Assembly (NCBI GenBank): GCA_027459745.1
Contig: DAIDHL010000001.1
Location: 13,828-77,827, forward strand
Length of the DNA: 64,000 bases
DNA from: Candidatus Levyibacteriota bacterium
Lineage (GTDB): Bacteria > Patescibacteriota > Microgenomatia > Levybacterales > UBA12049
Reading direction: 5' to 3'
In this document: one piece after another, positions 16,214-56,325 of the stretch
How the letters are laid out: each line of letters begins with the position of its first letter
Numbering within the stretch: position 1 is the stretch's first letter
Program-made: the position numbers and the translations under genes
The notes under the pieces: generated by a model
Databases searched by the model: none
What the model was told of the DNA's origin: nothing
The model's input: the letters and a program-made list of their open reading frames with translations, nothing else

Positions 16214-16223
16214 TCTCATCGCT

Positions 16224-19173: not shown

Positions 19174-21484
19174 TAAAATGTTCTCAATTATTCCTTCCAA
19201 AAAACAGTCGTTTTATATCTCTATACTGAACGTTTTAAGTATAGTTATTATATTATGGCTTCCTTATTATTTATTCGGTGATAAGTTATATATTGGAGGA
19301 GATGACACGAAACTTCTTTATAGTTATCCATTTGATTACTTTCGTAACGTCTCATTTTTTTCCTGGTTTAGTTTATCTTCATTACCTATGTACGATTCTG
19401 CTCAATTTTCATTGCCGTTGGCATCATTATTGGCAATATTATTGATAATATTTAAAAGCAGTATAGTTATAAATCATCTCGCATTTTCCTTAACAATAAT
19501 TTTTGGACTGATATTTTTTCAATTACTAACTCAAGAAATTATAGAAAATAGTAGAAGCTATAGGATAGAAATTTTTCTTGGATCACTGTTCTATGTGTTA
19601 TCGCCTATATTGATGTTTGATCAATATTCTAATTTTTATTCGTCTGTTTGGTTAATAGGCTTAATCCCTTGTGTAGGATATTTTTATATAAAATTTTTAA
19701 AAACTAAAAAATTTAAATTTATATTTTTTAATATCATATTTTGTACATTGTTGTCTTTGGGTTTGGCGGCTATACCATGGTTATTGGGAACTTTATTGTC
19801 ACTTTTAGCAGGGATAGTATTTTTGTTTTTTAGATTAAAAAACAAATTAGAGATCATCAGTTTATCTACATATTTCTTCATCATAACTTTGCTATCACAG
19901 GCATTTTGGTTCTTACCTTTCTTTATGTCTTATCTTATTACTGGCAAAAATAATGCAGCTTCGCAAATATTTTCTGATAATATCGCACAAAGTTTTAACG
20001 GAACAGTCCTTACTACAGCTTCAGGTAATATATTTTACCCATTATTAAATCTATTTCATAGACAAATAGCCTTTGATTATAGCTGGCCTTTGGCATTAGT
20101 ATTTAAGTATTTTTATGATAAAATCTATTATTTAAATCTGGTCTATGTCTTTATACTAATGTTAGGTTTGATATTATTTAAACCTATTATTAATAAAAAA
20201 GAAACAAATGTTTATTTATTCATATTAATTTTCTTTACTATCTCCCTTTATTTTTTTACTGTTAATATCGGTCCATTAAAATATTTGTTTTTATTGTTAG
20301 GTAATTTGCCTGGTTTTGTAATGTTTAGAAATTTTTATGACAAATTTACCTTAGGATTTTGTTTGTCCTATGCTATACTTATCACTTTTTCTTTGATATT
20401 GATTATTAGAAAATATAAAAAATGGCGGTATTTTTTATTGCTTATAGTTTTTATACTAATTTTAGTAAACGCTATACCTATTAAACAGATTGTTGATAAA
20501 CCATTATGGACTGCAAAAAATACAGCAACTAATATAAACTTACCGATAGAATATTTGAATTTTCTCAATTCTGTGAAAAACAAAATTGGCACTACTGATA
20601 ATGTTCTTTCTCTTCCACTCAACTCAGCGGGATATGCAGTTATTAGCGACTCAAATTCTAAAGGAGTATATGCAGGTACGTCTCCACTAAAAATATTTAC
20701 CGGGATAAATGACTATGCTGGAGACTTGTCTTTTGGACAAATTTATTCAAATAGGATTAATAAGGATTTACAAGACAAAAACTATAAGGATTTTGAAAAT
20801 GTATTAAAAAGATTGGATATAAATTATGTGATTTTGAATAAAAATATACCTAAGAGCGTTAAACAATCATTTTTATTTTCTGGAAAATTAAAAACACAAG
20901 ATGAAAATTTCGTAAAATCAATTACAGATAAGAAGCTGCTATCTAGCAGTCACGATAATTACCAATTGTATTCTACTAAAATCCACTCTAGTATATTTAG
21001 TGGAGGAAATATTACATTCAAAAAAATAAATCCCATAGAATATCATTTAACCATCAATAAAGTTAATAATAATACTTCGTTAATTTTTGTTAACCCTTAC
21101 AACTCAGGGTGGAAACTATATCTAGATAAAAATCAATTAAAGTGCGGTCTGGTAATTCATAGCATAGATTCATCTAAGCAATGTCAAAGCCAAAATACTA
21201 TTAATTTACTTGACGATATTAAATACATAACTTCTCCCAGCTTGAATACTGTTCACATCAATTACCTTAACTATGCTAATAAATGGAAGATTAGCAGTGA
21301 AGATATTATCAAAAACTTTCCTAAAAATGATTATAGCTTAAATAAAGATGGGACAATTAATTTAAATCTTACAGTTTACTTTTTCCCACAATTTTATTTT
21401 TATCTAGGGGTTGTTATTTCTGGATTAACATTTGTTATCATATCTCTATATTTATTTTATGAAAAAATTAAACTTAAAGCTTAA
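19154..21484 (+). CDS. Large polytopic membrane protein (776 aa) with a C-terminal extracytoplasmic domain; candidate GT-C-like glycosyltransferase; paralog of the ORF at 22477.
   Basis: About 14 TM helices followed by a soluble domain of roughly 330 aa and a terminal TM. It shares the motif LGNLPGFVMFRNFYDKF with the ORF at 22477 (FNHIPGFIMFRDPTKW). Confidence 0.45.
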   Translation: MLADNGNKMFSIIPSKKQSFYISILNVLSIVIILWLPYYLFGDKLYIGGDDTKLLYSYPFDYFRNVSFFSWFSLSSLPMYDSAQFSLPLASLLAILLIIFKSSIVINHLAFSLTIIFGLIFFQLLTQEIIENSRSYRIEIFLGSLFYVLSPILMFDQYSNFYSSVWLIGLIPCVGYFYIKFLKTKKFKFIFFNIIFCTLLSLGLAAIPWLLGTLLSLLAGIVFLFFRLKNKLEIISLSTYFFIITLLSQAFWFLPFFMSYLITGKNNAASQIFSDNIAQSFNGTVLTTASGNIFYPLLNLFHRQIAFDYSWPLALVFKYFYDKIYYLNLVYVFILMLGLILFKPIINKKETNVYLFILIFFTISLYFFTVNIGPLKYLFLLLGNLPGFVMFRNFYDKFTLGFCLSYAILITFSLILIIRKYKKWRYFLLLIVFILILVNAIPIKQIVDKPLWTAKNTATNINLPIEYLNFLNSVKNKIGTTDNVLSLPLNSAGYAVISDSNSKGVYAGTSPLKIFTGINDYAGDLSFGQIYSNRINKDLQDKNYKDFENVLKRLDINYVILNKNIPKSVKQSFLFSGKLKTQDENFVKSITDKKLLSSSHDNYQLYSTKIHSSIFSGGNITFKKINPIEYHLTINKVNNNTSLIFVNPYNSGWKLYLDKNQLKCGLVIHSIDSSKQCQSQNTINLLDDIKYITSPSLNTVHINYLNYANKWKISSEDIIKNFPKNDYSLNKDGTINLNLTVYFFPQFYFYLGVVISGLTFVIISLYLFYEKIKLKA

Positions 21485-22475
21485 TCTTTTAATTAAGCTA
21501 ATTATCCTTCTCTTTTTGGTCTTATCTGGTTTGAGTCTTGCTGTAATATTTAATTCTGGTACTGCGTTGTCGGCCATTACTGTAAGCGAATCAGGGAATG
21601 AGCTAAGATTTTCTAATACTAATCAATTATATAAAGGTGATAGCTTGACTGGGGTGTTTACTGCTAAGAATAATTATTTAGGAATAATTTATCTTAAGTT
21701 TGATAACGTTAAAAACCTGGATTATTACAATCAATCAGATTTTATTTTTAGAATAAAGAAAGACGGGGATAAATCTTGGTATGCTGTAAATAAATATAAG
21801 TCTGGTATAATTTATAATAATAACTACTTTCCATTTGGCTTTCCTCCAATAAGAAATTCACAAAATCATCAATTCGTTTTCCAGATTATATCCTTGAATG
21901 GAAATAAAACAAACTTTATCAAGATAGATACCAGTGTCTTTAATTTCGCTGCAAGTTATATCATTCCCAAAAGTGAAATTACATCAAATATTAGTTCTTT
22001 AGCAATATTTTTTATTAGGAAAGCCTTTTATTCATTGAATAATCCATATTTTGTTTTGAACTCCTTGAAGTACTTCATCCCAGCTCTTTTTTACTTTATT
22101 TGGATTACCCTACTTAATCGTTTTACGCAAATAAAGTATTCTTTAAGTCTAATAAGTATAACAATGGTTATATTAGATATTGTTTTCTTAAATGACATTT
22201 ACAGCGGGATACTTTTGGGAGCAGTAGGCTTATGGATATGGTCAGTTGTATTATATAAACTTGAATATAGCTTATCAATTTTAGTATCTTTATTATTGAT
22301 ATTATTAGGTACATTAACACTTAATATCGCTAATCCTAGTATGACTGATAAGATCTCAACGTGGGGATATCTGTTTTTTGTTTCTGGAATAGGTTTGGCA
22401 ATTTATCAAAGTTCTAATACTAAATCAAATTATATTACTATGAGACGATTTTTAAAGGATTTATCTAAAATCTAA
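21432..22475 (+). CDS. Hypothetical membrane protein: N-terminal TM, central extracytoplasmic domain, C-terminal TM bundle.
   Basis: ORF track and hydrophobicity pattern. The probable start is the internal MKKLNLKLN. Confidence 0.4.
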   Translation: MLSYLYIYFMKKLNLKLNLLIKLIILLFLVLSGLSLAVIFNSGTALSAITVSESGNELRFSNTNQLYKGDSLTGVFTAKNNYLGIIYLKFDNVKNLDYYNQSDFIFRIKKDGDKSWYAVNKYKSGIIYNNNYFPFGFPPIRNSQNHQFVFQIISLNGNKTNFIKIDTSVFNFAASYIIPKSEITSNISSLAIFFIRKAFYSLNNPYFVLNSLKYFIPALFYFIWITLLNRFTQIKYSLSLISITMVILDIVFLNDIYSGILLGAVGLWIWSVVLYKLEYSLSILVSLLLILLGTLTLNIANPSMTDKISTWGYLFFVSGIGLAIYQSSNTKSNYITMRRFLKDLSKI

Positions 22476-22476
22476 T

Positions 22477-24567
22477 ATGAAACATTGGATATTTAATTTA
22501 CTTTTTCTTCTTGTAATTATTAGAATTATCTTTCATGCCTGGTTTTTACCTGGAAGCCTTAACGGTGGAGACACTTGGTATTCAACACTATTATATTATC
22601 AACAGAATGAATTGCATCTTTGGGCTTGGCTGCCTACTTCTGGTAATGGTTTAGGAGCTTTCAACGCGTTTTTTAATTGGATTAGTTTATATTACCAGGT
22701 CCCGATAGCGTTTTTAGAAGGGATTTTTCATCTAAACTTATCATGGATTGAGCGTATAGGTTTTGTCTATCCATATTTGATTGTAGGAATTATTTCATCG
22801 ATATATTTAAGCAAGCTATTTAACAGAACTTCAAGCCTGTTATTTTTATTTAGTTTGATATTCATTTTTAATACATATTCACTCATGTTAATTTCGGGGC
22901 AGGTAGAATTAGCTTTAGCTTATGTCTTATCAGCATGGATTGTGTATCTTTTCTTAAATATTGTAAATAAAAGGCCAAACAGACAGACATATTTGTTCGC
23001 TTGTCTTCTTCTTTCGTTTCAAACCACAATAGACCCTAGAATTACCTACATAACTCTGTTAGCGATATTCTTATATTTTGTATTATATTTTATTCTAACT
23101 TTCCGTAACGATTATAAATTTTTTCATCGGATAATTAAGATTACATTTAAAATATTTATAATACCTGGAATCATTGATTTTTTAATAAACTCATACTGGT
23201 TACTACCGACAATAATCAATCACCAGAGTCCCCTTACTCAGTTAGGCTCTGCATATACTGAAACTGCTTCTGTGCAATATTTTAGTTTCGCAAAACTAGA
23301 AAATTCGATATCCCTACTGCATCCAAACTGGCCTGAAAATATATTTGGTTTGACACATTTTATGCAACCTGAGTTTATAATTTTGCCGATTTTGGCATTT
23401 ATCTCTTTACTGTTTATCAAAAGTGTTAATAGACAAGAAAAGATATACATTCTTTACTTTAGTCTACTTACTTTAATTGGATCCTTCTTGGCAAAAGGAG
23501 CTAATGCTCCATTGGGTATTCTTTATATGTGGATGTTTAATCATATACCCGGTTTTATTATGTTCCGTGATCCAACTAAATGGTATGTGTTAGTAGCGCT
23601 TGGATTTTCAGTATTAATTCCCTTCACTATTTTTAAAATTTATGAACTGTTAAAAACATGGGAAAACTTTAACATAAAAAAATATCTGGTTAGATTAAAT
23701 TTAAATAATAGTTTTTTTAATTTGTATAATTTATTTCTGTTTTTAGTTATTTTTTATCTACTTGTACTGATTATGCCTGCTTTATTTGGACAATTGACGG
23801 GTATGTTGAAGTCGACTCCCGTACCGATCGATTATGTCAATTTAGAAAAGTTTCTTAGTAATAAAAACAGGTTTTCAAGGACATTATGGATTCCGGTTAC
23901 ACAACGTTTTGGATATTATTCAAATACACATCCTGAAATAAGTGGAGAAAGTTTTTATAACATCTATGATCCAACGAAAGTTGTAAGTGAACTTAAATCT
24001 AATTCTGCTCAAATACAATTACAGGAAGCAGGTGTAGCATATGTAATTGTTCCTTATGATTCCGAAGGAGAAATATTTTTAAATGATCGTAAATATGATT
24101 CAAATTTATATGAGAAAACTATCGATCAGTTGAATAAGATTAAATGGCTCAAGGCTATTCCAGGTTTCGGTAGCGTAAAAGTATTCCAAGTCTCAAATTT
24201 TAAAAATCACTTCTGGTCACCCGATAAAATGTCTGTAAGTTATAAATATGTAAGCCCAGTTGAATATAAAGTTAATATAAGTAACGCCTCACATGGAGAT
24301 AAATTAGTTTTCGTTGAAGGATATGACTCTAATTGGGAGTTGGTAGATTCTAATAACCATATTATTCATTCTGGTGTATATGATCATCGATATAATAGTT
24401 TCTTGATCCCTGATAATGGCACCTACACAGTTTATTATTCCCCACAAATCTGGGTGGATAGGGGAGTAATTATTAGTCTAATTAGTTTGGGAATAAGTCT
24501 AATAATCCTCTTATATTTAACCTTTAAATCGAAGCTAAAAACTTTGTTTAAGTTCAGATTAAGCTAG
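22477..24567 (+). CDS. Large polytopic membrane protein (696 aa) with a C-terminal extracytoplasmic domain; paralog of the ORF at 19154.
   Basis: Multi-TM N-terminus with the shared PGF[VI]MFR motif and a soluble C-terminal domain. Confidence 0.45.
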   Translation: MKHWIFNLLFLLVIIRIIFHAWFLPGSLNGGDTWYSTLLYYQQNELHLWAWLPTSGNGLGAFNAFFNWISLYYQVPIAFLEGIFHLNLSWIERIGFVYPYLIVGIISSIYLSKLFNRTSSLLFLFSLIFIFNTYSLMLISGQVELALAYVLSAWIVYLFLNIVNKRPNRQTYLFACLLLSFQTTIDPRITYITLLAIFLYFVLYFILTFRNDYKFFHRIIKITFKIFIIPGIIDFLINSYWLLPTIINHQSPLTQLGSAYTETASVQYFSFAKLENSISLLHPNWPENIFGLTHFMQPEFIILPILAFISLLFIKSVNRQEKIYILYFSLLTLIGSFLAKGANAPLGILYMWMFNHIPGFIMFRDPTKWYVLVALGFSVLIPFTIFKIYELLKTWENFNIKKYLVRLNLNNSFFNLYNLFLFLVIFYLLVLIMPALFGQLTGMLKSTPVPIDYVNLEKFLSNKNRFSRTLWIPVTQRFGYYSNTHPEISGESFYNIYDPTKVVSELKSNSAQIQLQEAGVAYVIVPYDSEGEIFLNDRKYDSNLYEKTIDQLNKIKWLKAIPGFGSVKVFQVSNFKNHFWSPDKMSVSYKYVSPVEYKVNISNASHGDKLVFVEGYDSNWELVDSNNHIIHSGVYDHRYNSFLIPDNGTYTVYYSPQIWVDRGVIISLISLGISLIILLYLTFKSKLKTLFKFRLS

Positions 24568-29058: not shown

Positions 29059-32000
29059 ATGAACTTAATGCATGAACTGAGTTACATTTTTTTAAATAAT
29101 GTTTCGGTTGACTCTTGGCAATTATATTCACCCATAGTTTTAATACTGCTAATGATAGTAGGATATGCCTTATCGCCCTTCATTAGAAAGCATTTGTTAT
29201 TTATTTATACATCGTTTTTAACTCTATTTATCCCTTTATATCCTAAGATTCCTATAGAAGGCGTACGCAATACTTTTGTATATCTAAGATTAGATGATAT
29301 TGCCGTGGCAATTGGAGTAGTATTATGGCTGTTTTATCTAGTTAAAAAGAAAACTACTTGGAAGACACCTTTAACTATTCCTATCTTAATATATTGGGTA
29401 ATAGGTTTAATTTCTACAGTAGTTGCTTTAATATTTATTTTCCCAACGCTTCCAAACGTATTCCCGCATAATGCGATACTTTTTTACTTGCGGCATATTG
29501 AATATTTAATTGTGTACTTTTTGGCCTTTTCAGCCATGCGAGATAAGAAATATTTGCCCTGGATGAGCGGTATTTTGGTATTTACAATGCTGTTAATAAT
29601 CGGATATGGATTTGGTCAGGCAAGATATCCGTCTGTCTTCTTGGCATATTCGACCATGAACGAACAGTTTGCCAAAGGTATTCCGTTGATTCTGCAATCA
29701 GGAGCTAGAATTCAGGCCACCTTTGCAGGTCATTATGATCTGGCTGCTTATCTAGTGCTCTTAATTCCTTTGATTGGTAGCTTAGTATTCGGGACAAAAA
29801 AATGGTACTGGAAGATATTGTTTATTCTGACTGCTTTGATGGGTTTAATTTTATTATTGCTTACAGCCTCCAGAACGTCTTATGCAGTATATATAGTTGC
29901 GGTTATCATGATGCTTATTTTGCAGAAGAAAAAGATTTGGATTGTACCAGTTTTGGTCGTAAGCGTGTTACTTCTGTTATCTTTTCATACATTAGCCCAA
30001 AGATTTGCTGATACCTTGACCCAGCAATCTGTAGTTATTGATGCGAGAACTCATCAGGTTGTAGGTTTGGCAAATCAGAATAAGAAGACTGGTAAGGTGA
30101 CTGTTGTAGAAAAAACCGCTGTAGGGCAAAATTTAGCTCCAGGAAGCGGGTATATTGTATCTAATACCCAACAACCTATTCAGAAAACCACGGACGTAAC
30201 TTTTAAGAAGACTACTTTGCGGGCCGGAAGTGAGTCAGCTCAAATTACTAACCTGCGTGGGGACTTTGTCGTGCAGAAGGCTTTAGCATATGATGATTCC
30301 TTTACGACCCGTTTTCAAGGAGAATGGCCCATTGCAATTGCTGCGTTCTTGCGTGATCCTTTGCTGGGAAGTGGATATTCATCTATTGGCTTGGCCAGTG
30401 ATAACAATTACTTACGTATGTTAGGAGAAACGGGCTTATTGGGATTTTTGTCATTTCTGTTCATTTTTCTTATGACTGGGATTTATGCCTATAGGGTATT
30501 GCCAGATGTAGATTCACCTTTGGCCAAAAGTATGGTTTTTGGTACTCTGTCAGGTATCTTTGGCTTGGGATTAAACGCTATTTTAATTGATGTTTTCGAG
30601 GCTTCCAAGGATGCTTATGCACTTTGGTTATTACTAGGTATAACCATAGGTATATTGTCTTTGTATCAAAAGCATAAAGTTAATTTTATTTCAGATTTAA
30701 AAATCTTAATTTCCACTCCAGCTGTCGCCGTCTATTTCTTAATCGCTTGTTTGGGACTATTTATTAATAGTTTGAATAATTTCTTTGTAGCAGATGATTT
30801 TACTTGGTTGCGTTGGGTAGCAGATTGCAATAAGGTAGTTGTAAATGGTGTTGGGACTTGTGAGTCTGTAAAAGTTACCTTGTTACACTTTTTTACGAAC
30901 GCTGGTGGATTCTTCTATCGTCCGATGGAAAAATTATACTTTTACTTTATGTACACGCTCTTTGGATTTAATCCCACACCTTTTCATGCAGTTTCTGTTA
31001 TTACTCATTGGCTAGTCACAGTATTAATTTACATATTATCTAAAAGATTATTTGCTAATAAAAAATTCCCCGCTTTCTTGGTGGCTGTAGTTTTCATGTT
31101 GCTTAGTAGTCATACAGAAGACATTTACTGGATTTCTGCATCGGGTCATCTATTCGTAGCTCTATTTAGTTTATTGGCTGTACTATTTTATGACAATTAT
31201 CGTTTACATAAAAAGAAAATACAACTTATTTTAAGCTTACTTGCAGCGCTTATTGCACCGATGTTTCATGAGTCAGGAGTTATGGCTTCTGTTCTAGTGC
31301 TGTTATATGCAATAGTAATGGATTGGAATAATCTGCATAAGAGGGGAGCAAAGATATGGAGCTATCTAGTATGGTTAATGCCATTACCAGTATATTTTGC
31401 GATGAGAATATATGCAAAAAGTATTTGGAGTGCAGGGGATTATAGTTATAACTTAGCCAAATTACCACTTAATTTCTTTGGCAACATTTTAGGTTATTTT
31501 GTTACTACAATGGCTGGTCTATCATTTGTTTCATCCTATACTTTTATGCGTGATTATGGTAAATCGCATGTTTTAATAGTCATTTTAATTCTTTTAATTA
31601 TTTTAGCTGTTTTGATTGGTATATATTTGTTATTAAGGAAATCTAAAAAAGCATGGAATTATAAATTAATATTAATAGGTTTATTATTTTTTGTGGTGCC
31701 TTTGTTGCCATTCTTGGGACTGGGAAATATGTCCCCAAGATATGAATATTTGGCCAGTTTTGGAATTATATTATTAGTTGTTTATTTATTAGAAAAACTT
31801 TTTAAAGCAGTTAAATTAAATAACACATATGCATTGGGACTAATAAGTGTTATTTTAGTAGGTTTATTTAGTTGGTATCACTATATACAAATTATAAATA
31901 CCAGTGAAGATTGGACTAAGGCTGGTCAAATAGCACAAAATTCCCTGGTGGAAATTTCTAATGAATATGCTCAGCCGGGTTCATTACCTCCGAGTCCTGT

Positions 32001-32250
32001 CTTTTATTTTAGTAATGTACCCGCCACGTATGGTAAAGCGTTAGTTTTTCCGACCGGTATGCAAGATGCAATATGGATGTATTTCCAGGATAAAAATGTC
32101 ATCGTAAAAGAGACGCCCAATATTAATATATCTATTAAAGAAGGCGAAGCCACTACTAGCGCTAGGTTTTATGAATTTGACAAAAATTATAATATCATCG
32201 AAACAGCTCGGACGGTAGTTACTATTACTAAAAATAAAAATGCAAAATAA
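29059..32250 (+). CDS. Very large (1063 aa) polytopic membrane protein in two parts. The N-terminal part is O-antigen ligase/polymerase-like (Wzy_C). The C-terminal part is a second multi-TM module that looks like a GT-C/PMT glycosyltransferase.
   Basis: The N-terminal module of about 10 TM helices carries an LLTASRTSYAVYIVAVIMM segment, matching the Wzy_C arginine region. There is a soluble loop at about aa 330-420. The C-terminal module of more than 10 TM helices carries a FFYRPMEKLYFYFMYTLFGFNP loop. Confidence 0.45.
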   Translation: MNLMHELSYIFLNNVSVDSWQLYSPIVLILLMIVGYALSPFIRKHLLFIYTSFLTLFIPLYPKIPIEGVRNTFVYLRLDDIAVAIGVVLWLFYLVKKKTTWKTPLTIPILIYWVIGLISTVVALIFIFPTLPNVFPHNAILFYLRHIEYLIVYFLAFSAMRDKKYLPWMSGILVFTMLLIIGYGFGQARYPSVFLAYSTMNEQFAKGIPLILQSGARIQATFAGHYDLAAYLVLLIPLIGSLVFGTKKWYWKILFILTALMGLILLLLTASRTSYAVYIVAVIMMLILQKKKIWIVPVLVVSVLLLLSFHTLAQRFADTLTQQSVVIDARTHQVVGLANQNKKTGKVTVVEKTAVGQNLAPGSGYIVSNTQQPIQKTTDVTFKKTTLRAGSESAQITNLRGDFVVQKALAYDDSFTTRFQGEWPIAIAAFLRDPLLGSGYSSIGLASDNNYLRMLGETGLLGFLSFLFIFLMTGIYAYRVLPDVDSPLAKSMVFGTLSGIFGLGLNAILIDVFEASKDAYALWLLLGITIGILSLYQKHKVNFISDLKILISTPAVAVYFLIACLGLFINSLNNFFVADDFTWLRWVADCNKVVVNGVGTCESVKVTLLHFFTNAGGFFYRPMEKLYFYFMYTLFGFNPTPFHAVSVITHWLVTVLIYILSKRLFANKKFPAFLVAVVFMLLSSHTEDIYWISASGHLFVALFSLLAVLFYDNYRLHKKKIQLILSLLAALIAPMFHESGVMASVLVLLYAIVMDWNNLHKRGAKIWSYLVWLMPLPVYFAMRIYAKSIWSAGDYSYNLAKLPLNFFGNILGYFVTTMAGLSFVSSYTFMRDYGKSHVLIVILILLIILAVLIGIYLLLRKSKKAWNYKLILIGLLFFVVPLLPFLGLGNMSPRYEYLASFGIILLVVYLLEKLFKAVKLNNTYALGLISVILVGLFSWYHYIQIINTSEDWTKAGQIAQNSLVEISNEYAQPGSLPPSPVFYFSNVPATYGKALVFPTGMQDAIWMYFQDKNVIVKETPNINISIKEGEATTSARFYEFDKNYNIIETARTVVTITKNKNAK

Positions 32251-34968: not shown

Positions 34969-36360
34969 TTAGAAATCTTTTTTGAAAGGAAGTGTAAAAA
35001 GCTTATTATCCAAACAGTACTTTATTCGATTTAATATAGAAGTTGGGTAGTCTGTGGATAAATAGTCGAATTTTGGTCGATAATAAATGTTATTAATTGA
35101 GATACTGTCCACGTACGAATATAACTTATTTACAGCATCAGGAATACTTACGCCAGAGGCGGTTACGGGAGCAATGACTGTATCGTAACCAACATTGTAG
35201 TAATTGTCTTTTTTTAGAGCTAGTTCATAGAACCAAATATGTTCAGTGTATTTGTCTGGGAAATTAATTGAAATATTTGACTGATAATTGCCTGCTTTTA
35301 AATCTTGAATTAGATTGAACAATGTTATCGAAACTCCCACGCTTCCCAGTTTGTAAGGATTTTTTTTATTAACTACGCTTTCGAAATAATAAGAGAGATT
35401 GGGCATTTGTTCTAATGTAGTATAAAATGAGTTAAATCCAAATCTATTAGGACAAAATTCTCCAAAATATACTTTATTTGTTTTTCTATCAATCAACAAC
35501 GAAGCATCCCAGATGAATAATCCTTTATGTTTTTTTGCTATTTCATCGACAATCGGAGGGAAAGATAAATCATGAATTTTGCTATCCATACTTATCGGGA
35601 AAACTACATCCCCTGCACAGCCCACCTGGTATGAGAGATTGCCGCTACCTATAAACTTATTCTCAAACATGACTGTCATTCCTAGGGGTTGTCCATCATA
35701 ATAAATTTTTTCTGGAGTTATTTCTACTACATCTTCTATCTTCTTTTCTAAAATGAAACCAAACTTCTCATATTCGTGTTGGTTTTTATATAAGTTGTCA
35801 ATTAACTGTTTTCTTGCCTGAAGAGGATCATTTATAGGTGGAACAAATGTCGCGACAGAATCAGTCTGGGATTTTAGCACCCATACTTCTTTACTTTTAT
35901 TCAAAAAAGCTATAGCTTTATCAACAGAGTTAAATTTTTCTATTAACGATTCTGAAATATTAGGATAGTGTTTCTTAACGAATTCTTTTGCTTTATTCCT
36001 GTCCAATTCATACTCTCTATCTTCCTCTGTAGGGAATATGCCTTCAAATCCCATGGCCTGCAATTTTTGAGCGTATTTAAAAACATAATTAGATTCACAA
36101 ATGACAAAATAATCAGAAGGATTTTTGATTTTCTTAGCTTTTTTCAAGAAAACATCAGCATCGATCTTATTAATAATTTTGTTATATAAACTCAATCGTT
36201 GTTTTTTATCTAGAGGAGACTCTTTCTCAAAAGGTTCATTTGAAGTTCTGACATCTTTTAAATTTGCAATTTGGGCGAGTATTACTTCTTGACCTTCTTT
36301 TTGAAGTTTGTATGCAAGCGAGAAAATGAAACCTTCAAAGCCTATGATAATATATTTCAT
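34969..36360 (-). CDS. PurD-like (glycinamide-ribonucleotide-synthetase family) ATP-grasp ligase, paralog A.
   Basis: Segments are collinear with PurD. MKYIIIGFEGFIFSLAYKL matches the GARS_N MKVLVIGSGGREHALAWKL region. MGFEGIFPTEEDREYELDRNKAKEFVKKHYP matches AGLKIFGPT..A.LEGSKAFTKDFL. KVYFGEFCPNRFGFNSF matches PKVIEFNCRFGDPETQ. Confidence 0.5.
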   Translation of the reverse strand: MKYIIIGFEGFIFSLAYKLQKEGQEVILAQIANLKDVRTSNEPFEKESPLDKKQRLSLYNKIINKIDADVFLKKAKKIKNPSDYFVICESNYVFKYAQKLQAMGFEGIFPTEEDREYELDRNKAKEFVKKHYPNISESLIEKFNSVDKAIAFLNKSKEVWVLKSQTDSVATFVPPINDPLQARKQLIDNLYKNQHEYEKFGFILEKKIEDVVEITPEKIYYDGQPLGMTVMFENKFIGSGNLSYQVGCAGDVVFPISMDSKIHDLSFPPIVDEIAKKHKGLFIWDASLLIDRKTNKVYFGEFCPNRFGFNSFYTTLEQMPNLSYYFESVVNKKNPYKLGSVGVSITLFNLIQDLKAGNYQSNISINFPDKYTEHIWFYELALKKDNYYNVGYDTVIAPVTASGVSIPDAVNKLYSYVDSISINNIYYRPKFDYLSTDYPTSILNRIKYCLDNKLFTLPFKKDF

Positions 36361-36366
36361 GAGATT

Positions 36367-37830
36367 TTAAAAAGTGACCGGAAAAGGTAGTTTATATAGC
36401 TTTTTTTGTAATCCATATCTTAAACGATTTAATATTGAGCTAGGATAATCCAACGAAAGAAAATCTGATTTAGGGCGATAATAAATTCCTGCCAAAGAAA
36501 ATCCTTCAATGTTTTCAAACAACATTCTAGTCGCTTCATCAATAGAATGGCCAACTCCAGTTATTGGTGCAAGTTGCCAATCATATCCTACGATTCTCAT
36601 TTTATCATTTTTCTTTTTTTTGTAAACGTCCCAAGACCAGATGTGTTTAGAAGCTTCTTGAGTATAATTTACTGAAGCACCGGATAAAAGATGTCTCTCG
36701 GTCGGATCTCGTAATAAATTAAATAATGTAGTTGATACACCTACCGTACCCAATTCAAATGGATTTTCTTTTTTAACAATTTTTTCAAAAAAATAATGAA
36801 TTGAAGGTAATTGAGATAGACATGTAAAAAAAGAGTTATATCCAGGTCGATTAGGGCAAAATTCGCCAAAATAAATATCTCCTGTTTTCTTATCAATTAA
36901 TAAAGATGCGTCCCAAATAAACAGTCCTTTATGTTTTTTTGCCATTTTGTCAATTATAGGGGGGAAAGTTATCTTGTCGATTTTGTTATCTAAATCTATA
37001 GGAAAAACAAGATCAGCTGCACAGCCTGTTTGTAAAGATATATTACCGCTACCTATTTGTTTGTTTTCAAAATTTATAGTTAGAGATAAAAGTTTTCCGT
37101 CATAGTAGATTCTCTCTGGCGTGACCTCCGCAACAGAGATAATTTTCCTTTCCAGAATAAAGCCTGCATCTTCATAATAATCCTTAAATGCTTCCAGAGT
37201 TTCAATAACTTGCCATTTTGCAAGTTCGGGATCATCTGTGTTTGGTACGAAAGTCGGTGCCCATAAGTTTTTACCTTTAAGAACCCATACTTTATCTCCA
37301 TTATTTTCTTTTAAAAATTTCTTTCCTCTTCGGATAGTTCTAAATTCTGCTTTTTCTGCGATTTTAACATCCTTGTAATATTTTTTAACAAAATTTTTAG
37401 AGAAGTCTCTATCGACTTCAAATAAACGATCTTTCTCGGTTGGAAAATTCCCCCGTGTAAATCCTAGCGCCTTGACATGATCTGCGTATCTAAATAAATT
37501 ATTGTAGTCAAAAAAAACAAAGTAATTATCTTTATCTTTGATTCTTTTCATTTGTCTTAAAAGTTTTACGGCAGGAATCTTATTGATCATATTTTTGTAT
37601 AATGACAATCTTCTTTTTTTTTCAACACTGGTTTCGGAGTCATTAGTTTTTTTCTCAATTCTGGTTAAAGTTGTTTTTCTGTCCTCAACTATTCCCACAA
37701 TAACTTCTTGCCCTTCTTCTTGTAGTTTATGTGCAATTGGTAGTCCTTCTCCCGCATATGTGAAGATAATGTATTTCATACTAGTAATTAAAGAATAATT
37801 TCTGCGAAATTGCAAGAATTTATACAACAT
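36367..37830 (-). CDS. PurD-like ATP-grasp ligase, paralog B. The true start is probably the internal MKYIIFTYAGEG at about nt 37776.
   Basis: Same collinear motifs as paralog A: KALGFTRGNFPTEKDRLFEVDRDFSKNFVKKYY; DIYFGEFCPNRPGYNSF. It lies tandem to the ORF at 34969. Confidence 0.5.
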   Translation of the reverse strand: MLYKFLQFRRNYSLITSMKYIIFTYAGEGLPIAHKLQEEGQEVIVGIVEDRKTTLTRIEKKTNDSETSVEKKRRLSLYKNMINKIPAVKLLRQMKRIKDKDNYFVFFDYNNLFRYADHVKALGFTRGNFPTEKDRLFEVDRDFSKNFVKKYYKDVKIAEKAEFRTIRRGKKFLKENNGDKVWVLKGKNLWAPTFVPNTDDPELAKWQVIETLEAFKDYYEDAGFILERKIISVAEVTPERIYYDGKLLSLTINFENKQIGSGNISLQTGCAADLVFPIDLDNKIDKITFPPIIDKMAKKHKGLFIWDASLLIDKKTGDIYFGEFCPNRPGYNSFFTCLSQLPSIHYFFEKIVKKENPFELGTVGVSTTLFNLLRDPTERHLLSGASVNYTQEASKHIWSWDVYKKKKNDKMRIVGYDWQLAPITGVGHSIDEATRMLFENIEGFSLAGIYYRPKSDFLSLDYPSSILNRLRYGLQKKLYKLPFPVTF

Positions 37831-37886
37831 TGCTTATGTTTTGCTAATAAAATGGAGTTTAAACTCTTGTGATATACTAGCCATAT

Positions 37887-49404: not shown

Positions 49405-51300
49405 TTATTGAAGAGCAAATCCTTTTAACTGTCGTATTCTATCTCTTCGTCGCTTTAATAAGCTTTTCTCAGAAAGTCCTTTTACTTTTAAGAAAGCATA
49501 TCCAAGAGCATCATGTATGGCCTTTGCAGTTATGTAAGGATTTTTATCTTCAGGAATAACTTCATCAATAAGCCCGAGGTCTTTTTGATCGGCTGCTGTC
49601 GCCCTCATATTATTTATTGTAAGTTTAATGTCTTCAACTGTAGGGTTTGCTTCATTATTAAGAATGGCAGTTGCCGAACGTGGTTCTGCCACAAAAGCCA
49701 TGCTTTTTCCCGTCATAGCTACATGATCTCCAAGTGGTGTGGTGGCCAGTCCGCCACCACTTCCGAGTGCGCCTATCACCACAGAAATAACTGGATGTGG
49801 GTAAGTTATTCCTGCTTGGATTGACTTGGCTATTTCTCTTGACTGACCGTTCTTTTCTGCTTCCAGAGTAGGCTTTGCTCCGAGGGTATCTGTAAAAAAT
49901 ACTACTGGTAAGTGCAATCGCTCACCCATAGCTAACATCCTTTGCATATATTCAAAATCAGCGGGACCCGGGCTTGACGGGATTTTATTTACTTTATCTC
50001 CGACTTGAATATAACTTGGCTGATTACCAATTGCTAAGAAAGGCTGCTCACCAATTTTGCCTAGTCCAGCAATAATTGCAGGATAGTTTATATTTCCTTG
50101 GTCTTGAAAGCTATTGTATAAAGGCAAAAAGTCACTAAAAGAATGGGACATAAAAAATTCAGAGTCTGGTCGATTTGCATTCTTAATTAATGATTCATAT
50201 TGTTTATATAATCTATCCTCAGTAGATTCTTGTGTTGATGGTAAATCTTTTCCCCATAGTGTACTCGCCTCACTGGGTTGTCGATTTACATTGGAAAATT
50301 GGGATGTATTAGCTCCTTGTACATCTTTATACGAAATACCAGGTTGTACTTGGAAATTAGCTATCATTTCAGGAGTAATAACTCTATGATCTCGTTTTGT
50401 TAGTCTTAAATAATGATGAAGAAACTTTAATAAATCATGTTGATCATCAACTAAAAGGTCAACATTCCTTTGTATAAGATTAATCTCTGCACTTTGTTCG
50501 CCTTTAAGAACTGGCTTTTTCGTATATGTTTCAATAACTCTAGGTCCGGAAAAACCGTAGTCAGTTCCTCGAAATGCTACGACGAGATCTGCCAAAGGAA
50601 CACCACTTGCAGATACACCACCCCATACTTGCCCATTCAGAACTGCTACTGATGGTTGATCTGTGAGTCTCTTATGTGATTCTATGGCTTGTACCATTCG
50701 GGTCATCTGAATAAGGCCTGCGAAATTTTCTTGTTGACGCACTCCTGCTGATGAATATATTGAAACAAGTGGTAAATTTCTACTTATAGCCAGGTCTGAT
50801 GCAGCTTGAAGTTTTTCGCCGGCAACAACACCTAAAGAACCTGCAAAAAAATCCCAGTGCATACTATAAAGGGCTATACTTTGCTCGCCTATTTTCGCAG
50901 TTCCCACAGCTGCTGCTTCATTTTTTCCCTTCGCTGCTTCCTTTGCTAGTTTATCAGTATATGTTTCAAATCCGCCGCTAGTCAGGCGACGAAGAAGGCC
51001 TATTCTATCTTCTCCAATTTGCCATCCTTTATGTCTTTCTCTGAATCGCAGTCTTACTTTCATACCTGCAGCAGTCTGTGCTGCATCAACTTTTGGGCGT
51101 AATGTCATAATACGACTCAGAGGAGTTGCCACTTCTTTAAAAGGAGGAAGTGCCTCTACTAATCCTGCAACATCACCTTGATCTGCATAATATTCTGAGG
51201 GTTCTTGAGGGATATGGCGATTTTTAAATAATTTAGCTTGGCTTGGAATTTCAGCTGATGACATAGTGCGTATTCTAGCAAAGCAAGAATGGTTGTGCAA
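49405..51300 (-). CDS. Acetyl-CoA (acyl-CoA) carboxylase carboxyltransferase, fused beta (AccD-like) and alpha (AccA-like) subunits.
   Basis: The N-terminal half reads AKIGEQSIALYSMHWDFFAGSLGVVAGEKL...IYSSAGVRQQE, matching AccD ...AFEFAFMGGSMG...SASGGARMQE. The C-terminal half reads HLPVVFFTDTLGAKPTLEAEKNGQSREIAKSI...VISVVIGALGSGGGLA, matching AccA [23 protein letters not shown]...VIGEGGSGGALA. Confidence 0.75.
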   Translation of the reverse strand: MHNHSCFARIRTMSSAEIPSQAKLFKNRHIPQEPSEYYADQGDVAGLVEALPPFKEVATPLSRIMTLRPKVDAAQTAAGMKVRLRFRERHKGWQIGEDRIGLLRRLTSGGFETYTDKLAKEAAKGKNEAAAVGTAKIGEQSIALYSMHWDFFAGSLGVVAGEKLQAASDLAISRNLPLVSIYSSAGVRQQENFAGLIQMTRMVQAIESHKRLTDQPSVAVLNGQVWGGVSASGVPLADLVVAFRGTDYGFSGPRVIETYTKKPVLKGEQSAEINLIQRNVDLLVDDQHDLLKFLHHYLRLTKRDHRVITPEMIANFQVQPGISYKDVQGANTSQFSNVNRQPSEASTLWGKDLPSTQESTEDRLYKQYESLIKNANRPDSEFFMSHSFSDFLPLYNSFQDQGNINYPAIIAGLGKIGEQPFLAIGNQPSYIQVGDKVNKIPSSPGPADFEYMQRMLAMGERLHLPVVFFTDTLGAKPTLEAEKNGQSREIAKSIQAGITYPHPVISVVIGALGSGGGLATTPLGDHVAMTGKSMAFVAEPRSATAILNNEANPTVEDIKLTINNMRATAADQKDLGLIDEVIPEDKNPYITAKAIHDALGYAFLKVKGLSEKSLLKRRRDRIRQLKGFALQ

Positions 51301-52135: not shown

Positions 52136-52573
52136 ATGTTGCTGGGACAGTACGAAGGAACGTTAACGAACAAACAACAAATCAGTCTGCCCAGTAAATT
52201 TAGACAGATTCTTGGTGAGAGAATTATCATCACTAAAGGGTTTGAGCATTGTTTAATTGTAGTTTCAGAAGGAATGTGGAAGACATTATTGGAGGGGACT
52301 GAGGGAAAACCATTTACAGATAAACCGGCAAGAGAAATACAAAGGTTTTTACTAGGAAACGCTACATTCGTAGAACTGGACAGTAAAGGTAGATGTGTGC
52401 TGCCTGCATACCTACGTGAATATGCCCAGATTATGAATGAAATTGTTTTTGCAGGTCTCTCCCGCTTTGTGGAGATTTGGGATAAAAAGGCCTGGAAAGA
52501 ACAACAAAGTAGTTTAAGTGAAAATGCAGTCAGTATTGCAGAACGCCTGTCCAGAGAGGAAAAAGATGAGTAA
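52136..52573 (+). CDS. mraZ: Transcriptional regulator MraZ.
   Basis: MLLGQYEGTLTNKQQISLPSKFRQIL...ITKGFEHCLIV and a second half-domain ...ATFVELDSKGRCVLPAYLREYA: the duplicated SpoVT/AbrB-like MraZ fold. It is the first gene of the dcw block. Confidence 0.9.
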   Translation: MLLGQYEGTLTNKQQISLPSKFRQILGERIIITKGFEHCLIVVSEGMWKTLLEGTEGKPFTDKPAREIQRFLLGNATFVELDSKGRCVLPAYLREYAQIMNEIVFAGLSRFVEIWDKKAWKEQQSSLSENAVSIAERLSREEKDE

Positions 52574-53492
52574 TTATCATACTAGCGTTTTGCCTGAGGA
52601 AACGATTGGATATTTAAACATAAAAAGAGGTGAAAAATATATTGATGCTACGCTAGGTGGAGGAGGACATACAACTCAAATTCTAGAGCAGGGTGGGAAA
52701 GTTTTAGGAATTGATGTCGACCAAGAAGCGTTGGACGAGGTTGAAAAAAGAATTAAAGATCAAAAGTTTTTAGTTCATGTATCAAGTGAAAAGGAACAGG
52801 CAAACATAAGATTGGATGCAGATTTAATTTTAGTTAAGGGAAATTTTAGAGATATAAGAAAAATTGCAAAAAAATATGGTTTTGAAAACGTTGCAGGCAT
52901 TATTTTTGATCTTGGTGTTTCAAGTCATCAGATTGATGACGCAAATAGAGGATTCAGTTTTAGTAAAGAAGGACCGTTAGACATGCGGATGGATAATAAT
53001 TTGTCTGTTACAGCCAAAGATTTGGTAAATGGATTACATAGGAATGAGTTGATTGAGATATTCAAACGGTTTGGGGAAGAAAATTTTGCGCACGGCATTG
53101 CAACAGAGATTGTTAAAACAAGAAAAGAGAAACCGATTGAAACAACTAAACAACTGACTGAAATTATTGAAAGAGTAATGCCAGCCAAGTTAAATAGAAT
53201 GGCGGCGGCGGCTAGAATATTTCAGTCTTTAAGGATAGTAGTAAATGATGAGCTACATGCCATTGAAGATGCGTTGCCTGAAGCTTGTAGTTTGTTGCAA
53301 ACAAGAGGAAAATTAATTGTTATTTCTTTTCATTCCTTGGAGGATAGAATAGTAAAGCATTTGTTCGTAAAATTCGAACAACAAGGAATGGGAAAAGCAT
53401 TGACACACCAACCAGTGTTGGCGACAGAAAAAGAAATAGCAATGAATGTTAGAAGTAGAAGCGCTAAATTAAGAGTGTTTGAAAAAATATAA
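52566..53492 (+). CDS. rsmH: 16S rRNA (cytosine1402-N4)-methyltransferase RsmH (MraW).
   Basis: HTSVLPEETIGYL...YIDATLGGGGHT is the SAM-binding motif of RsmH. The start is chosen at MSNYHT; the ORF-track start at 52518 would overlap mraZ. Confidence 0.9.
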   Translation: MSNYHTSVLPEETIGYLNIKRGEKYIDATLGGGGHTTQILEQGGKVLGIDVDQEALDEVEKRIKDQKFLVHVSSEKEQANIRLDADLILVKGNFRDIRKIAKKYGFENVAGIIFDLGVSSHQIDDANRGFSFSKEGPLDMRMDNNLSVTAKDLVNGLHRNELIEIFKRFGEENFAHGIATEIVKTRKEKPIETTKQLTEIIERVMPAKLNRMAAAARIFQSLRIVVNDELHAIEDALPEACSLLQTRGKLIVISFHSLEDRIVKHLFVKFEQQGMGKALTHQPVLATEKEIAMNVRSRSAKLRVFEKI

Positions 53493-53495
53493 AAT

Positions 53496-55471: not shown

Positions 55472-55486
55472 AAAATAGGATTATAA

Positions 55487-55816: not shown

Positions 55817-55842
55817 AATCAGAATTATACCATACCATAAAA

Positions 55843-55898
55843 GGGTTAAGGGTTAAGGGTTAAGGGTTAAGGGTTAAGGGTTAAGGGTTAAGGGTTAA
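55843..55898. repeat. Heptanucleotide microsatellite (GGGTTAA)x8.
   Basis: Eight perfect tandem copies at 55843-55898. On the minus strand the tract encodes the last residues (..LTLNP) and the TAA stop of the DUF192 gene. It lies in the upstream region of the csaA-like gene. Confidence 0.95.
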
Positions 55899-56195: not shown

Positions 56196-56325
56196 AAGTA
56201 AAGTATAACGATTATTGTTCGATCGAATTGAGCACTAACCGTCTGGACCTTTCGCCTCTGGCTCGAGAAATATTACAGATCTTTATTACTAAAGTTTAAT
56301 ACTCTATACTAAATAATACTATCAT

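What the first reader, a model, noticed from the sequence alone, without database searches (positions are those of the whole stretch)
34969..37830. Two tandem PurD-like ATP-grasp ligase paralogs embedded on the opposite strand inside the glycan cluster
Both proteins are collinear with glycinamide ribonucleotide synthetase (PurD). The matches cover the N-domain MKxxIIG..G, the G(F/L)..(I/F)xPT...ELD(R/G)xK.F.K.F region, and the B-loop/A-domain KV(Y/I)(F/E)(G)EF(C/N)(P/C)(N)R(F/P)G motif, which corresponds to PurD EFNCRFGDPE. They sit between glycosyltransferases rather than with other pur genes. They are duplicated and each carries extra insertions, giving 463 and 487 aa against about 420 in PurD. 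PurD ligates glycine to the amine of a phosphoribosylamine. A co-opted PurD homolog here could amidate a sugar amine with an amino acid. The DegT aminotransferase in the same island could supply such an amine, giving N-aminoacyl sugars. No comparable system comes to mind. Streamlined genomes of this type often lack de novo purine synthesis, which would make a housekeeping role unlikely.
Basis: partly seen in the sequence, partly recalled or inferred. Interest (0 to 1): 0.75.

Follow-up and report, generated by a model that had tools for sequence, protein, structure and literature searches.

The report
Phage-related PurD-fold ligase pair, function unknown
Two adjacent genes encode enzymes shaped like the purine-pathway enzyme PurD but lacking its substrate-binding residues; they belong to a large unnamed family rooted in phages, and their position inside a sugar-coat gene cluster looks incidental.

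Summary
Window 34969-36360 and 36367-37830 (minus strand) encode two paralogues (49% identical) with the full four-domain PurD (GAR synthetase) fold: AF2 pLDDT 90.6, and the top 15 PDB matches are all PurD. They lie between GT4 glycosyltransferases.

They are not PurD. They score 22-24 bits against a cutoff of 288. All 77 relatives keep the ATP-grasp core (K163, E205, D285, E301, N305, R306, plus invariant C303). None keeps PurD's GGREHA site, GLAAGK loop or GDPE base.

The glycan reading is not supported. Of 122 genes flanking relatives elsewhere, only 2 are GT4, both from the closest relative. The pair occurs in at least 5 unrelated contexts. The DegT amine, 20 kb away, has its own formyltransferase.

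New findings:
- The family is large (570 representatives) and has no Pfam or NCBIfam model.
- Its deep branches are phage-borne, including a Patescibacteria prophage, where the gene closes the virion-type operon.
- Some members carry an intein exactly at the catalytic GEF|C motif, or a possible Pnkp-like HAD domain.
- Single-copy cellular members pair with a conserved 145-aa protein (C1) or an Amidohydro_2 hydrolase.

Most likely these are ATP-dependent amide-forming ligases of unknown substrate.

The parts
34969..36360 (-). Paralogue A (463 aa), the downstream gene: a PurD-fold ATP-grasp ligase of the faster-evolving 'A-type'.
   Evidence: ORF. AF2 pLDDT 90.6. Top PDB fold matches are all PurD. 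Keeps K163, E205, D285, E301, C303, N305, R306 and 106 of 121 family-conserved columns.
36367..37830 (-). Paralogue B, the upstream gene: 487 aa as the longest ORF, probably 470 aa from the ATG at 37779. This is the conserved 'B-type' (63-86% identical across lineages).
   Evidence: ORF. 49% identical to A. Keeps 113 of 121 family-conserved columns. The family N-terminus MKYI aligns to residue 18. B-type conservation across loci.
36361..36366 (-). The 6-bp spacer between the stop codon of B and the start codon of A, implying a two-gene operon.
   Evidence: Sequence read.
37780..37886 (.). Divergent intergenic region between the probable start of B (37779) and the GT4 gene starting at 37887. 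It presumably holds the pair's promoter, but no signal could be distinguished from chance.
   Evidence: Sequence read. The promoter scan was not informative: 23 sites found against 15.8 +/- 3.5 expected.

Best explanation
The two genes encode a pair of catalytically competent ATP-grasp ligases with the N-B-A-C architecture of GAR synthetase. They are not GAR synthetases. They belong to a large, unnamed family whose deep diversity lies in phages, where the gene closes the virion-type operon; one such phage is a prophage in a Patescibacteria MAG. The cellular copies form one shallow clade scattered across Patescibacteria, Coxiellaceae-like Gammaproteobacteria, Udaeobacter/Verrucomicrobia, Anaerolineales and others.

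In that clade the single-copy genes sit beside a conserved ~145-aa helical protein (C1) and/or an Amidohydro_2 hydrolase (C2). The window's genes belong to a sub-clade in which the ligase was duplicated instead. That sub-clade has a slowly evolving B-type and a faster-evolving A-type, inherited together as an autonomous two-gene operon that has landed in several unrelated neighbourhoods. The window's glycosyltransferase block is one of them.

Inferred mechanism: ATP phosphorylates a carboxylate to an acyl-phosphate, which an amine then attacks to form an amide, as in PurD. The substrates differ from PurD's, because the PRA and glycine sites are rebuilt. The two paralogues probably act as a heteromer, or perform two successive or alternative ligations.

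The acceptor is unknown. My best guess, at low confidence, is a phosphorylated small molecule such as a nucleotide or sugar-phosphate derivative, because some phage members carry what may be a Pnkp-type HAD phosphatase domain fused at either end.

Shown: fold, family, residue conservation, contexts, phage membership. Inferred: catalysis, heteromer, substrate class.
For: Fold. Not PurD by score. Core residues invariant in 77/77 members, PurD-specific residues absent: judged against PMC2978367 and PMC8880213. Both paralogues keep the core. Family size with no names or domains. Patchy taxonomy and several copies per genome. Conserved partners C1 (30 of 77 loci) and C2 (16 loci), both present in L053. 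A C1-like gene also in phage locus L092 (E = 2e-14). Tandem clade with two subtypes. At least 5 unrelated tandem contexts, mostly divergent from the neighbours. No glycan enrichment (2 of 122). Phage contexts for 5 of 5 deep-branch representatives picked without regard to origin, plus 3 IMG/VR contigs. Cellular clade nested within the deep radiation. Inteins at the catalytic motif mark that site as essential. HAD-like fusions at either terminus, with best matches in phage Pnkp genes.
Against: No biochemical data exist and no substrate is identified. The HAD assignment is weak: no Pfam hit, no PDB profile hit, and tblastn E only 0.3-0.8 and 5e-3. No HAD-like domain occurs in cellular loci or in the window. 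The trees are NJ with midpoint rooting, so the direction of transfer (phage to cell or the reverse) is not established. Two of the tandem context types concern the cell envelope (glycosyltransferases; Mur ligases/MurA/GlmU), so an envelope-directed role for the tandem sub-clade remains possible. The window's pair has no C1 or C2 nearby, so what holds for single-copy members may not transfer to it. The Mg-ligand register of E-F-C-x-N-R against PurD E-F-N-C-R could not be checked in 3D.
Confidence: 0.6

Rival explanations
1. One reading: the pair is dedicated to the surrounding glycan cluster. It ligates an amino acid to an amino sugar, or amidates a uronic acid, to give aminoacyl-decorated surface polysaccharide.
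For: The pair sits directly between GT4 genes in a long glycan cluster. The arrangement is kept in the 75%-identical relative L004. There is a known precedent for ATP-grasp amidoligases in glycan synthesis together with a phosphatase: Cj1438C/Cj1435 (PMC11800379). HAD-like fusions occur in phage relatives.
Against: Only 2 of 122 flanking genes in other genomes are GT4, and both come from L004. The pair occurs in at least 5 other contexts. It lies antisense to the otherwise co-directional cluster. The DegT amine has its own adjacent formyltransferase 20 kb away. There is no Pfam match to TupA-like or any other glycan ATP-grasp family.
Confidence: 0.12
2. The tandem pair modifies peptidoglycan precursors. 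It would add one or two amino acids to the stem peptide or cross-bridge, as the ATP-grasp enzymes Ddl and D-aspartate ligase do.
For: In three loci (L005/L080, L088, L104) the pair is divergent from two Mur ligases, MurA and GlmU/GlmS, near mraZ-mraW-PBP. In L088 it is followed by another ATP-grasp gene and an Orn/DAP-decarboxylase-fold gene. L083 has an MR_MLE epimerase, Asparaginase_2 and an M20 peptidase nearby. The window carries the same mur/dcw synteny 15-25 kb away.
Against: The three mur loci share synteny, so they may represent a single event. Other tandem contexts are unrelated: PHP protein/Pth, SecA/radical SAM, SET proteins. The wider family also occurs in Gram-negative lineages and in phages. 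The partners C1 and C2 are not cell-wall proteins. That Ddl and D-aspartate ligase are ATP-grasp enzymes rests on my own knowledge and was not tested here.
Confidence: 0.12
3. The family acts on a macromolecule: a protein (C1, or virion proteins) or a nucleic-acid end. It would then resemble RimK/TTL-type protein ligases, or a healing-and-sealing system.
For: C1 has an invariant N-terminal motif (MRYDDVGDY) in a region predicted to be disordered, as expected for a docking or substrate peptide. Phage copies lie in the virion-type module, and some carry coiled-coil plus beta-rich tails. A KH-domain gene sits immediately upstream in L097 and L098. The possible HAD domain resembles that of Pnkp. 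Some cellular neighbours are a LigT-like gene, a DNA ligase, RNase HII and LigD/Ku.
Against: The C2 partner is an Amidohydro_2 enzyme, a family that to my knowledge acts on small molecules. C1's C-terminus is not conserved across subclades. The nucleic-acid-related neighbours are sporadic. The PurD fold is known only for small-molecule ligation.
Confidence: 0.12
4. One copy is simply a divergent housekeeping GAR synthetase (PurD).
For: The overall fold is PurD. UniRef's automatic name for the Aquicella homologue is 'phosphoribosylamine-glycine ligase'.
Against: The score is 22-24 bits against the 288-bit cutoff. Arg13/Glu14 of GGREHA, the GLAAGK B-loop and the Asp general base are all missing in 77 of 77 members. 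Genomes hold up to three loci. The family is present in ~40-kb phages. No pur genes lie in the window.
Confidence: 0.02

Closest known systems
GAR synthetase / PurD (EC 6.3.4.13; TIGR00877; Pfam GARS_N/A/C)
   Same: The same four-domain N-B-A-C fold, aligned over the full length (Foldseek E down to 6e-24). The order of sequence blocks is collinear. It keeps the B-domain Lys, the hinge Glu, and the Glu and Arg of the catalytic strand. By inference it uses the same acyl-phosphate chemistry.
   Different: Only 14-18% identity, and far below every curated cutoff. The GGREHA PRA site, the GLAAGK B-loop and the GDPE general base are all absent; E-F-C-x-N-R with an invariant Cys takes the place of E-F-N-C-R. 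It has an N-domain insertion and a C-terminal tail. There is no pur context, genomes carry several copies, and some members are phage-borne.
Biotin carboxylase, PurK and PurT branch of the ATP-grasp superfamily
   Same: These are the next-best structural neighbours (E about 1e-16 to 1e-14), with the same ATP-grasp core.
   Different: They score lower than PurD, and there is no sequence-level match. There is no biotin-carrier or carboxyltransferase partner next to the pair.
TupA-like ATP-grasp amidoligase Cj1438C with the phosphatase Cj1435 (Campylobacter capsule)
   Same: An ATP-grasp enzyme inside a glycan cluster that forms an amide and works with a phosphatase on a phosphorylated amine (PMC11800379).
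   Different: It belongs to a different ATP-grasp family, and no TupA Pfam hit was found. It is fused to a GT2 domain and consistently linked to glycan genes, whereas this family is not.
T4-type polynucleotide kinase/3'-phosphatase (HAD domain)
   Same: The ~115-aa domain fused to some phage members has D-x-D-G-T / T-G / K / (E/D)-D motifs. Its best tblastn matches are phage Pnkp genes.
   Different: The matches are weak (E 0.3-0.8 and 5e-3). The second Asp of motif I is N or H in several members. Neither Pfam nor PDB profiles confirm it. The domain is absent from the window's proteins.

Membership tests
PurD / GAR synthetase | Four-domain N-B-A-C ATP-grasp fold | tested here: met
   AF2 pLDDT 90.6. 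The top 15 PDB matches are PurD, with 450-466 aligned columns.
PurD / GAR synthetase | Score above the curated cutoff of TIGR00877 or Pfam GARS_N/A/C | tested here: not met
   22.1 and 24.0 bits against 288. GARS_C 12.6 bits against 34.8; no GARS_N or GARS_A hit.
PurD / GAR synthetase | N-domain GGREHA motif (Arg13/Glu14: PRA phosphate and ribose site) | tested here: not met
   The family has G10-x-(G/A/S)-x-P14-(I/V)-A16, with no Arg, Glu or His in any of 77 members. Residue roles are from PMC2978367.
PurD / GAR synthetase | Conserved Gly-rich B-loop GLAAGK | tested here: not met
   Replaced by K163-G-x-x-D167-x-x-x-T171-F-V-P174. The motif is from PMC2978367.
PurD / GAR synthetase | EFNCRFGDPE: glycine/acyl-phosphate Arg plus Asp general base and Glu | tested here: not met
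   E301 and R306 are kept. G-D-P-E is replaced by G308-Y309-N310-S311 (F309 in protein A). C303 and N305 are invariant.
PurD / GAR synthetase | Occurs together with other purine de novo genes | tested here: inconclusive
   No pur gene lies in the 64-kb window, and none was seen beside homologues. The rest of the source genome could not be read.
ATP-grasp superfamily (carboxylate-amine ligases) | ATP-grasp fold with a conserved Lys on the B-domain strand, a hinge Glu, and acidic/Asn Mg ligands and Arg on the catalytic strand | tested here: met
   K163, E205, D285, E301, N305 and R306 are present in 77 of 77 members. K, D, E and R are also invariant in 37 deep-branch representatives. The roles are assigned by alignment to PurD, not by 3D superposition.
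ATP-grasp superfamily (carboxylate-amine ligases) | ATP-dependent ligation through an acyl-phosphate intermediate | not testable with these tools
   This needs enzymology.
TupA-like glycan ATP-grasp amidoligases (e.g. Cj1438C) | Sequence membership (Pfam ATPgrasp_TupA) | tested here: not met
   No such hit even at E <= 10.
TupA-like glycan ATP-grasp amidoligases (e.g. Cj1438C) | Consistent linkage or fusion with glycosyltransferases | tested here: not met
   GT4 appears in 2 of 122 flanking genes, both from L004. The fusions found are HAD-like domains, coiled-coil tails or inteins, never a glycosyltransferase.
Known or candidate anti-phage defence systems (PADLOC-DB) | Match to a defence-system protein model | tested here: not met
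   No hit for A, B, C1 or the phage members P0266 and P0267.

The most novel reading that the evidence does not exclude
PurD-fold ligases form a previously unrecognised phage-encoded modification system. In this reading a virion-module ATP-grasp enzyme, sometimes fused to a Pnkp-like phosphatase or a virion-attachment tail and partnered with C1 or KH proteins, modifies a host or phage macromolecule or precursor during infection. Patescibacteria and other host-dependent bacteria would then have domesticated it, in this window as a duplicated heteromeric pair serving the cell envelope.
Probability: 0.15. Interest if true: 0.85.

Novelty: new variant of a known kind. Interest (0 to 1): 0.55.

Why it matters
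This family has at least 570 representatives at 50% identity. It has no Pfam or NCBIfam model and no characterised member, yet it conserves its active site strictly enough to host inteins at the catalytic motif.

It shows the PurD scaffold, so far tied to a single reaction in purine synthesis, reused for a different ligation in phages and in metabolically dependent bacteria (Patescibacteria, Coxiellaceae-like lineages, Udaeobacter).

Identifying its substrate would define a new ATP-grasp reaction. It could also reveal a conserved late function in phages of Patescibacteria, about which very little is known.

For annotation, it warns against two things: transferring the name 'phosphoribosylamine-glycine ligase' to these proteins, and inferring function from a neighbourhood seen in only one lineage.

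Tried and rejected
1. Pfam, NCBIfam and PHROGs on A and B gave no usable family.
2. phmmer of A against the PDB gave nothing.
3. afdb50 Foldseek was unavailable.
4. GenBank phages and PLSDB plasmids by tblastn with A, P0266 and P0267 gave no match, so the phage members are absent from deposited, annotated phage genomes.
5. BFVD fold search found only generic ATP-grasp proteins, TM <= 0.40.
6. PADLOC gave no defence-family match, so a known-defence-system role was rejected.
8. The idea that C1's C-terminus (WKVR) is a conserved substrate end was rejected, because it is limited to one subclade.
9. The idea that the N-terminal extension of phage members is fused C1 was rejected: no C1 HMM hit.
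10. A relationship among the ~450-511-aa neighbours of tandem pairs (L080, L082, L083, window 501 aa) was rejected: no similarity. A later test showed that only the PHP/MJ0043_C-type neighbour recurs, in L006, L007, L105 and L106.
11. Scanning the viral collection with a broad alignment failed, because no stretch was conserved enough.
12. The promoter and terminator scan was no better than shuffled sequence.
13. Literature searches for PurD-like ATP-grasp proteins in Patescibacteria or their phages found nothing relevant.
14. Neither paralogue is a pseudoenzyme: both keep the catalytic core.
Full report
**1. The observation**

The window has two minus-strand ORFs, 34969-36360 (A, 463 aa) and 36367-37830 (B, 487 aa), separated by 6 bp. 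They are 49% identical over their whole length, E = 7e-162.

They interrupt an otherwise co-directional plus-strand series running from 62 to 43846. Pfam identifies that series as GT2, GT4, PMT_2, a Wzy_C-like protein, a flippase, nucleotide-sugar enzymes, an NDP-sugar pyrophosphorylase and the initiating Bac_transf. The immediate neighbours are GT4 genes on the other strand.

The family-wide N-terminus MKYI corresponds to residue 18 of ORF B. B therefore probably starts at the ATG at 37779 and is 470 aa.

**2. Is it PurD-like?**

Ordinary annotation fails:
- Pfam gives nothing significant.
- NCBIfam TIGR00877 gives 22-24 bits against a cutoff of 288.
- phmmer against the PDB gives nothing.

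A profile of 35 homologues (A1) does pick out several PurD chains in the PDB, collinearly, but at E 0.002-1. hhalign to E. coli PurD is collinear over 307 columns at low probability.

The structure prediction is decisive. The model has pLDDT 90.6 and pTM 0.89. The 15 best Foldseek PDB matches are all GAR synthetases over 450-466 columns (E 6e-24 to 2e-17). Biotin carboxylases follow at about 1e-16.

**3. It is not PurD**

Published structures assign the PurD-specific functions as follows (PMC2978367; PMC8880213):
- Arg13/Glu14 of the N-domain GGREHA motif form the PRA phosphate and ribose site.
- The B-loop GLAAGK is conserved in GAR synthetases.
- In EFNCRFGDPE, the Arg binds glycine and the acyl-phosphate, and the Asp is the general base.

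In an alignment of 77 family members:
- The ATP-grasp core is invariant: K163, E205, D285, E301, N305, R306, plus C303.
- GGREHA is replaced by G-x-(G/A/S)-x-P-(I/V)-A.
- There is no Gly-rich B-loop.
- GDPE is replaced by G-Y-N-S (F309 in protein A).

Both window proteins keep the core and most family-conserved columns: A 106 of 121, B 113 of 121. Neither looks like a pseudoenzyme. I infer that they are active ATP-dependent ligases using acyl-phosphate chemistry on substrates other than PRA and glycine.

**4. The family and its partners**

The 5.8-billion-protein search found 431 relatives. Nearly all are about 467 aa, named 'hypothetical' and without a Pfam domain.

A scan of one genome per species found 76 loci. 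The taxa are Levyibacteriota and other Patescibacteria, Coxiellaceae-like Gammaproteobacteria (including the isolate Aquicella lusitana), Udaeobacter and other Verrucomicrobia, Anaerolineales, Nitrospirota and Fimbriimonas. Some genomes hold several loci.

Clustering all neighbouring ORFs gave only two recurrent partners, each immediately 3' of the ligase gene:
- **C1**, about 145-170 aa, in 30 loci on either strand.
- **C2**, 261 aa, in 16 loci.

C2 is an Amidohydro_2 metal-dependent hydrolase. C1 has no Pfam family. It is a tightly conserved family of its own, with 146 hits at about 70% identity and invariant MRYDDVGDY, HEFxE and YHR motifs. It has no PDB relative by sequence or fold. L053 carries the ligase, C1 and C2 together.

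The window has neither C1 nor C2.

**5. The tandem pair**

In an NJ tree the tandem pairs form their own clade, which splits into two subtypes.

Every tandem locus has one well-conserved B-type gene, 63-86% identical to window B. It also has a faster-evolving partner. B usually comes first, but the order is reversed in L086 and L100, and L103 has three copies.

The pair occurs in at least five unrelated settings:

| Setting | Loci |
|---|---|
| GT4 genes | window and L004 only |
| Two Mur ligases, MurA, GlmU/GlmS, near mraZ-mraW-PBP | L005/L080, L088, L104 |
| PHP/MJ0043_C protein and peptidyl-tRNA hydrolase | L006, L007/L082, L105, L106 |
| SecA upstream, radical-SAM gene downstream | L086, L099, L100 |
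| Unannotated 504-aa protein, Asparaginase_2, GNAT, MR_MLE, SET proteins | L083, L101 |

In most of these the pair is transcribed divergently from its neighbours. It behaves as a self-contained two-gene unit.

The window itself carries the same mur/dcw block as L080 and L088: MraZ, MraW, PBP, YdjM, Mur(M+C), PgeF, MurC-like, MurA and NTP-transferases at 52136-63919. There, however, the pair lies about 19 kb away from it.

**6. Test of the glycan hypothesis**

I took the first gene on each side of the ligase unit in every genome locus (122 proteins) and scanned them all against Pfam. No family occurred more than three times. Glycos_transf_1 occurred twice, both times in L004.

From general knowledge of amino-sugar pathways, this is the usual layout for an N-formylated amino sugar, so that amine already has an acylating enzyme beside it.

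ATP-grasp amidoligases in glycan synthesis are in fact known: the TupA-like domain of Cj1438 working with the Cj1435 phosphatase (PMC11800379). This family does not match that Pfam model.

The glycan reading is therefore unsupported by comparative evidence, though it is not excluded for this one lineage.

**7. A phage connection**

A profile search of 1.84 billion representatives found 570 proteins at E <= 1e-3 and 148 at E <= 1e-30. Many are more distant than the cellular clade, and several are longer.

Four carry an intein with a LAGLIDADG endonuclease. It is inserted between F302 and the invariant C303. The N-junction reads GEF|CF(S/D)xxTx(I/V)LT. In P0310 the C-junction reads SSN|CGNRPGY, so the family's invariant Cys serves as the +1 nucleophile.

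Eleven have an N-terminal extension of 112-137 aa with D-x-D-G-T / I-T-G / K / (F/Y)-(E/D)-D motifs. Two have the same kind of domain at the C-terminus. Pfam and PDB profiles do not recognise it. Its best tblastn matches in 2.3 Gb of phage genomes are Pnkp 3'-phosphatase/kinase genes, at E 0.3-0.8 and 5e-3. I treat 'HAD phosphatase' as tentative. Three others have coiled-coil plus beta-rich tails.

All five representatives whose contigs I could read, chosen by length or fusion type and not by origin, are on phage-like contigs:
- P0266: L090/L091, with ERF.
- P0267: L092, with Cpn10, HNH and M23.
- P0310: L093, a VirSorter-named contig.
- P0248: L097, with Gp80, a glucosaminidase, HNH, Cpn60/Cpn10 and NT5C.
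- P0254: L098, in a Patescibacteria MAG, with the same module ending at a phage integrase next to host GluRS.

Three IMG/VR genomes of about 40 kb also carry the gene.

In all of these the ligase closes a co-directional block of large ORFs. From reading the sequences myself, that block includes peptidoglycan-binding, SLT-type and Gly/Ala-rich internal-virion-like proteins, followed by a tail-spike-like protein and an M23 lysin.

L092 also encodes a C1-like protein (E = 2e-14).

In an NJ tree the whole cellular clade, window pair included, is one shallow branch inside this deep radiation. This is consistent with acquisition from phages, but the rooting is only midpoint.

No member is present in GenBank phages, PLSDB, BFVD or PADLOC. 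I found no description in the searchable literature.

**8. Best explanation and rivals**

The window's genes are a duplicated, probably cooperating pair of ATP-dependent amide-forming ligases. They come from an uncharacterised, phage-related, PurD-fold family. They are not PurD, and their position in the glycan cluster is most likely incidental.

The substrate is unknown. The Amidohydro_2 partner and the possible phosphatase fusions lean towards a phosphorylated small molecule.

Envelope-directed roles (glycan or peptidoglycan precursor) and macromolecule-directed roles (C1, virion proteins, nucleic-acid ends) remain live rivals at roughly 0.1 each. A housekeeping PurD role is about 0.02.

**9. 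Verdict**

The finding is a new family-level variant of a known enzyme kind, with unexpected phage roots and inteins at the active site. Interest is moderate (0.55): it is uncharacterised and surprising in its distribution, but no function has been established.

Noticed in passing
Proteins P0285, P0310 (locus L093 10001-12550), P0323, P0327: These relatives of the window's ligases carry an intein with a LAGLIDADG homing endonuclease. It is inserted exactly between F302 and the invariant C303 of the catalytic GEF|C-x-NR motif, so the family's conserved Cys acts as the +1 splicing nucleophile.
   Followed up: partly
window 14062-16937: A three-gene block: a DegT/DnrJ/EryC1 aminotransferase, a GFO/IDH/MocA oxidoreductase and a Formyl_trans_N protein (the PurN fold). 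It looks like a pathway for an N-formylated amino sugar. The formyltransferase is a homologue of the enzyme that follows PurD in purine synthesis, but here it sits in a sugar context.
   Followed up: partly
window 52136-63919: A dcw/mur block: MraZ, MraW, PBP, YdjM, a Mur ligase with only the M+C domains, Cu-oxidase_4 (PgeF/YfiH-type), a MurC-like ligase, MurA and two NTP-transferase genes (one GlmU-like). The same order occurs in L080 and L088, where the ligase pair sits between YdjM and the Mur(M+C) gene.
   Followed up: partly
L003 11418-11855 and 38 other loci; alignment A2: C1 is an unannotated, highly conserved ~145-aa protein family (invariant MRYDDVGDY, HEFxE, YHR, EN-G--W). It lies next to single-copy ligase genes and also occurs in phage locus L092. 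It has no Pfam, PDB or fold relative. L053 has the ligase, C1 and the Amidohydro_2 gene together.
   Followed up: partly
L005/L080 (CAYQEE010000001.1) and other MAGs labelled 'uncultured Gammaproteobacteria': L080 shares the mur/dcw gene order with the Patescibacteria-type window, and its B-type ligase is 70% identical to window B. The 'Gammaproteobacteria' label of these MAGs may be wrong, or it may reflect recent transfer.
   Followed up: no
window 62-2627, 4852-7994, 19154-24567, 29059-32250: Several large ORFs inside the glycan cluster have no Pfam family at E <= 1e-4: 356, 510, 525, 522, 776, 347 and 696 aa. There is also a 1063-aa membrane protein whose only hit is a sub-threshold match to the Wzy_C O-antigen-ligase domain.
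   Followed up: no
window 49405-51300 (minus strand): A 631-aa protein combines carboxyltransferase beta-like (Carboxyl_trans) and alpha-like (ACCA) regions of acetyl-CoA carboxylase. This is unexpected in a genome type usually said to lack fatty-acid synthesis.
   Followed up: no
L097 15918-17832: A ~36-kb phage contig that carries the ligase also encodes both Cpn60 (GroEL-like) and Cpn10, together with GT2, a polysaccharide deacetylase and an NT5C nucleotidase.
   Followed up: no
L103 6454-12538: One metagenomic locus carries three ligase paralogues (an A-type, a B-type and a third), with a 588-aa gene between the first and second.
   Followed up: no
window 14052-14426 (minus strand): A 124-aa ORF lies antisense to the DegT gene and overlaps the end of the preceding GT2 gene. 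It is probably not a real gene.
   Followed up: no
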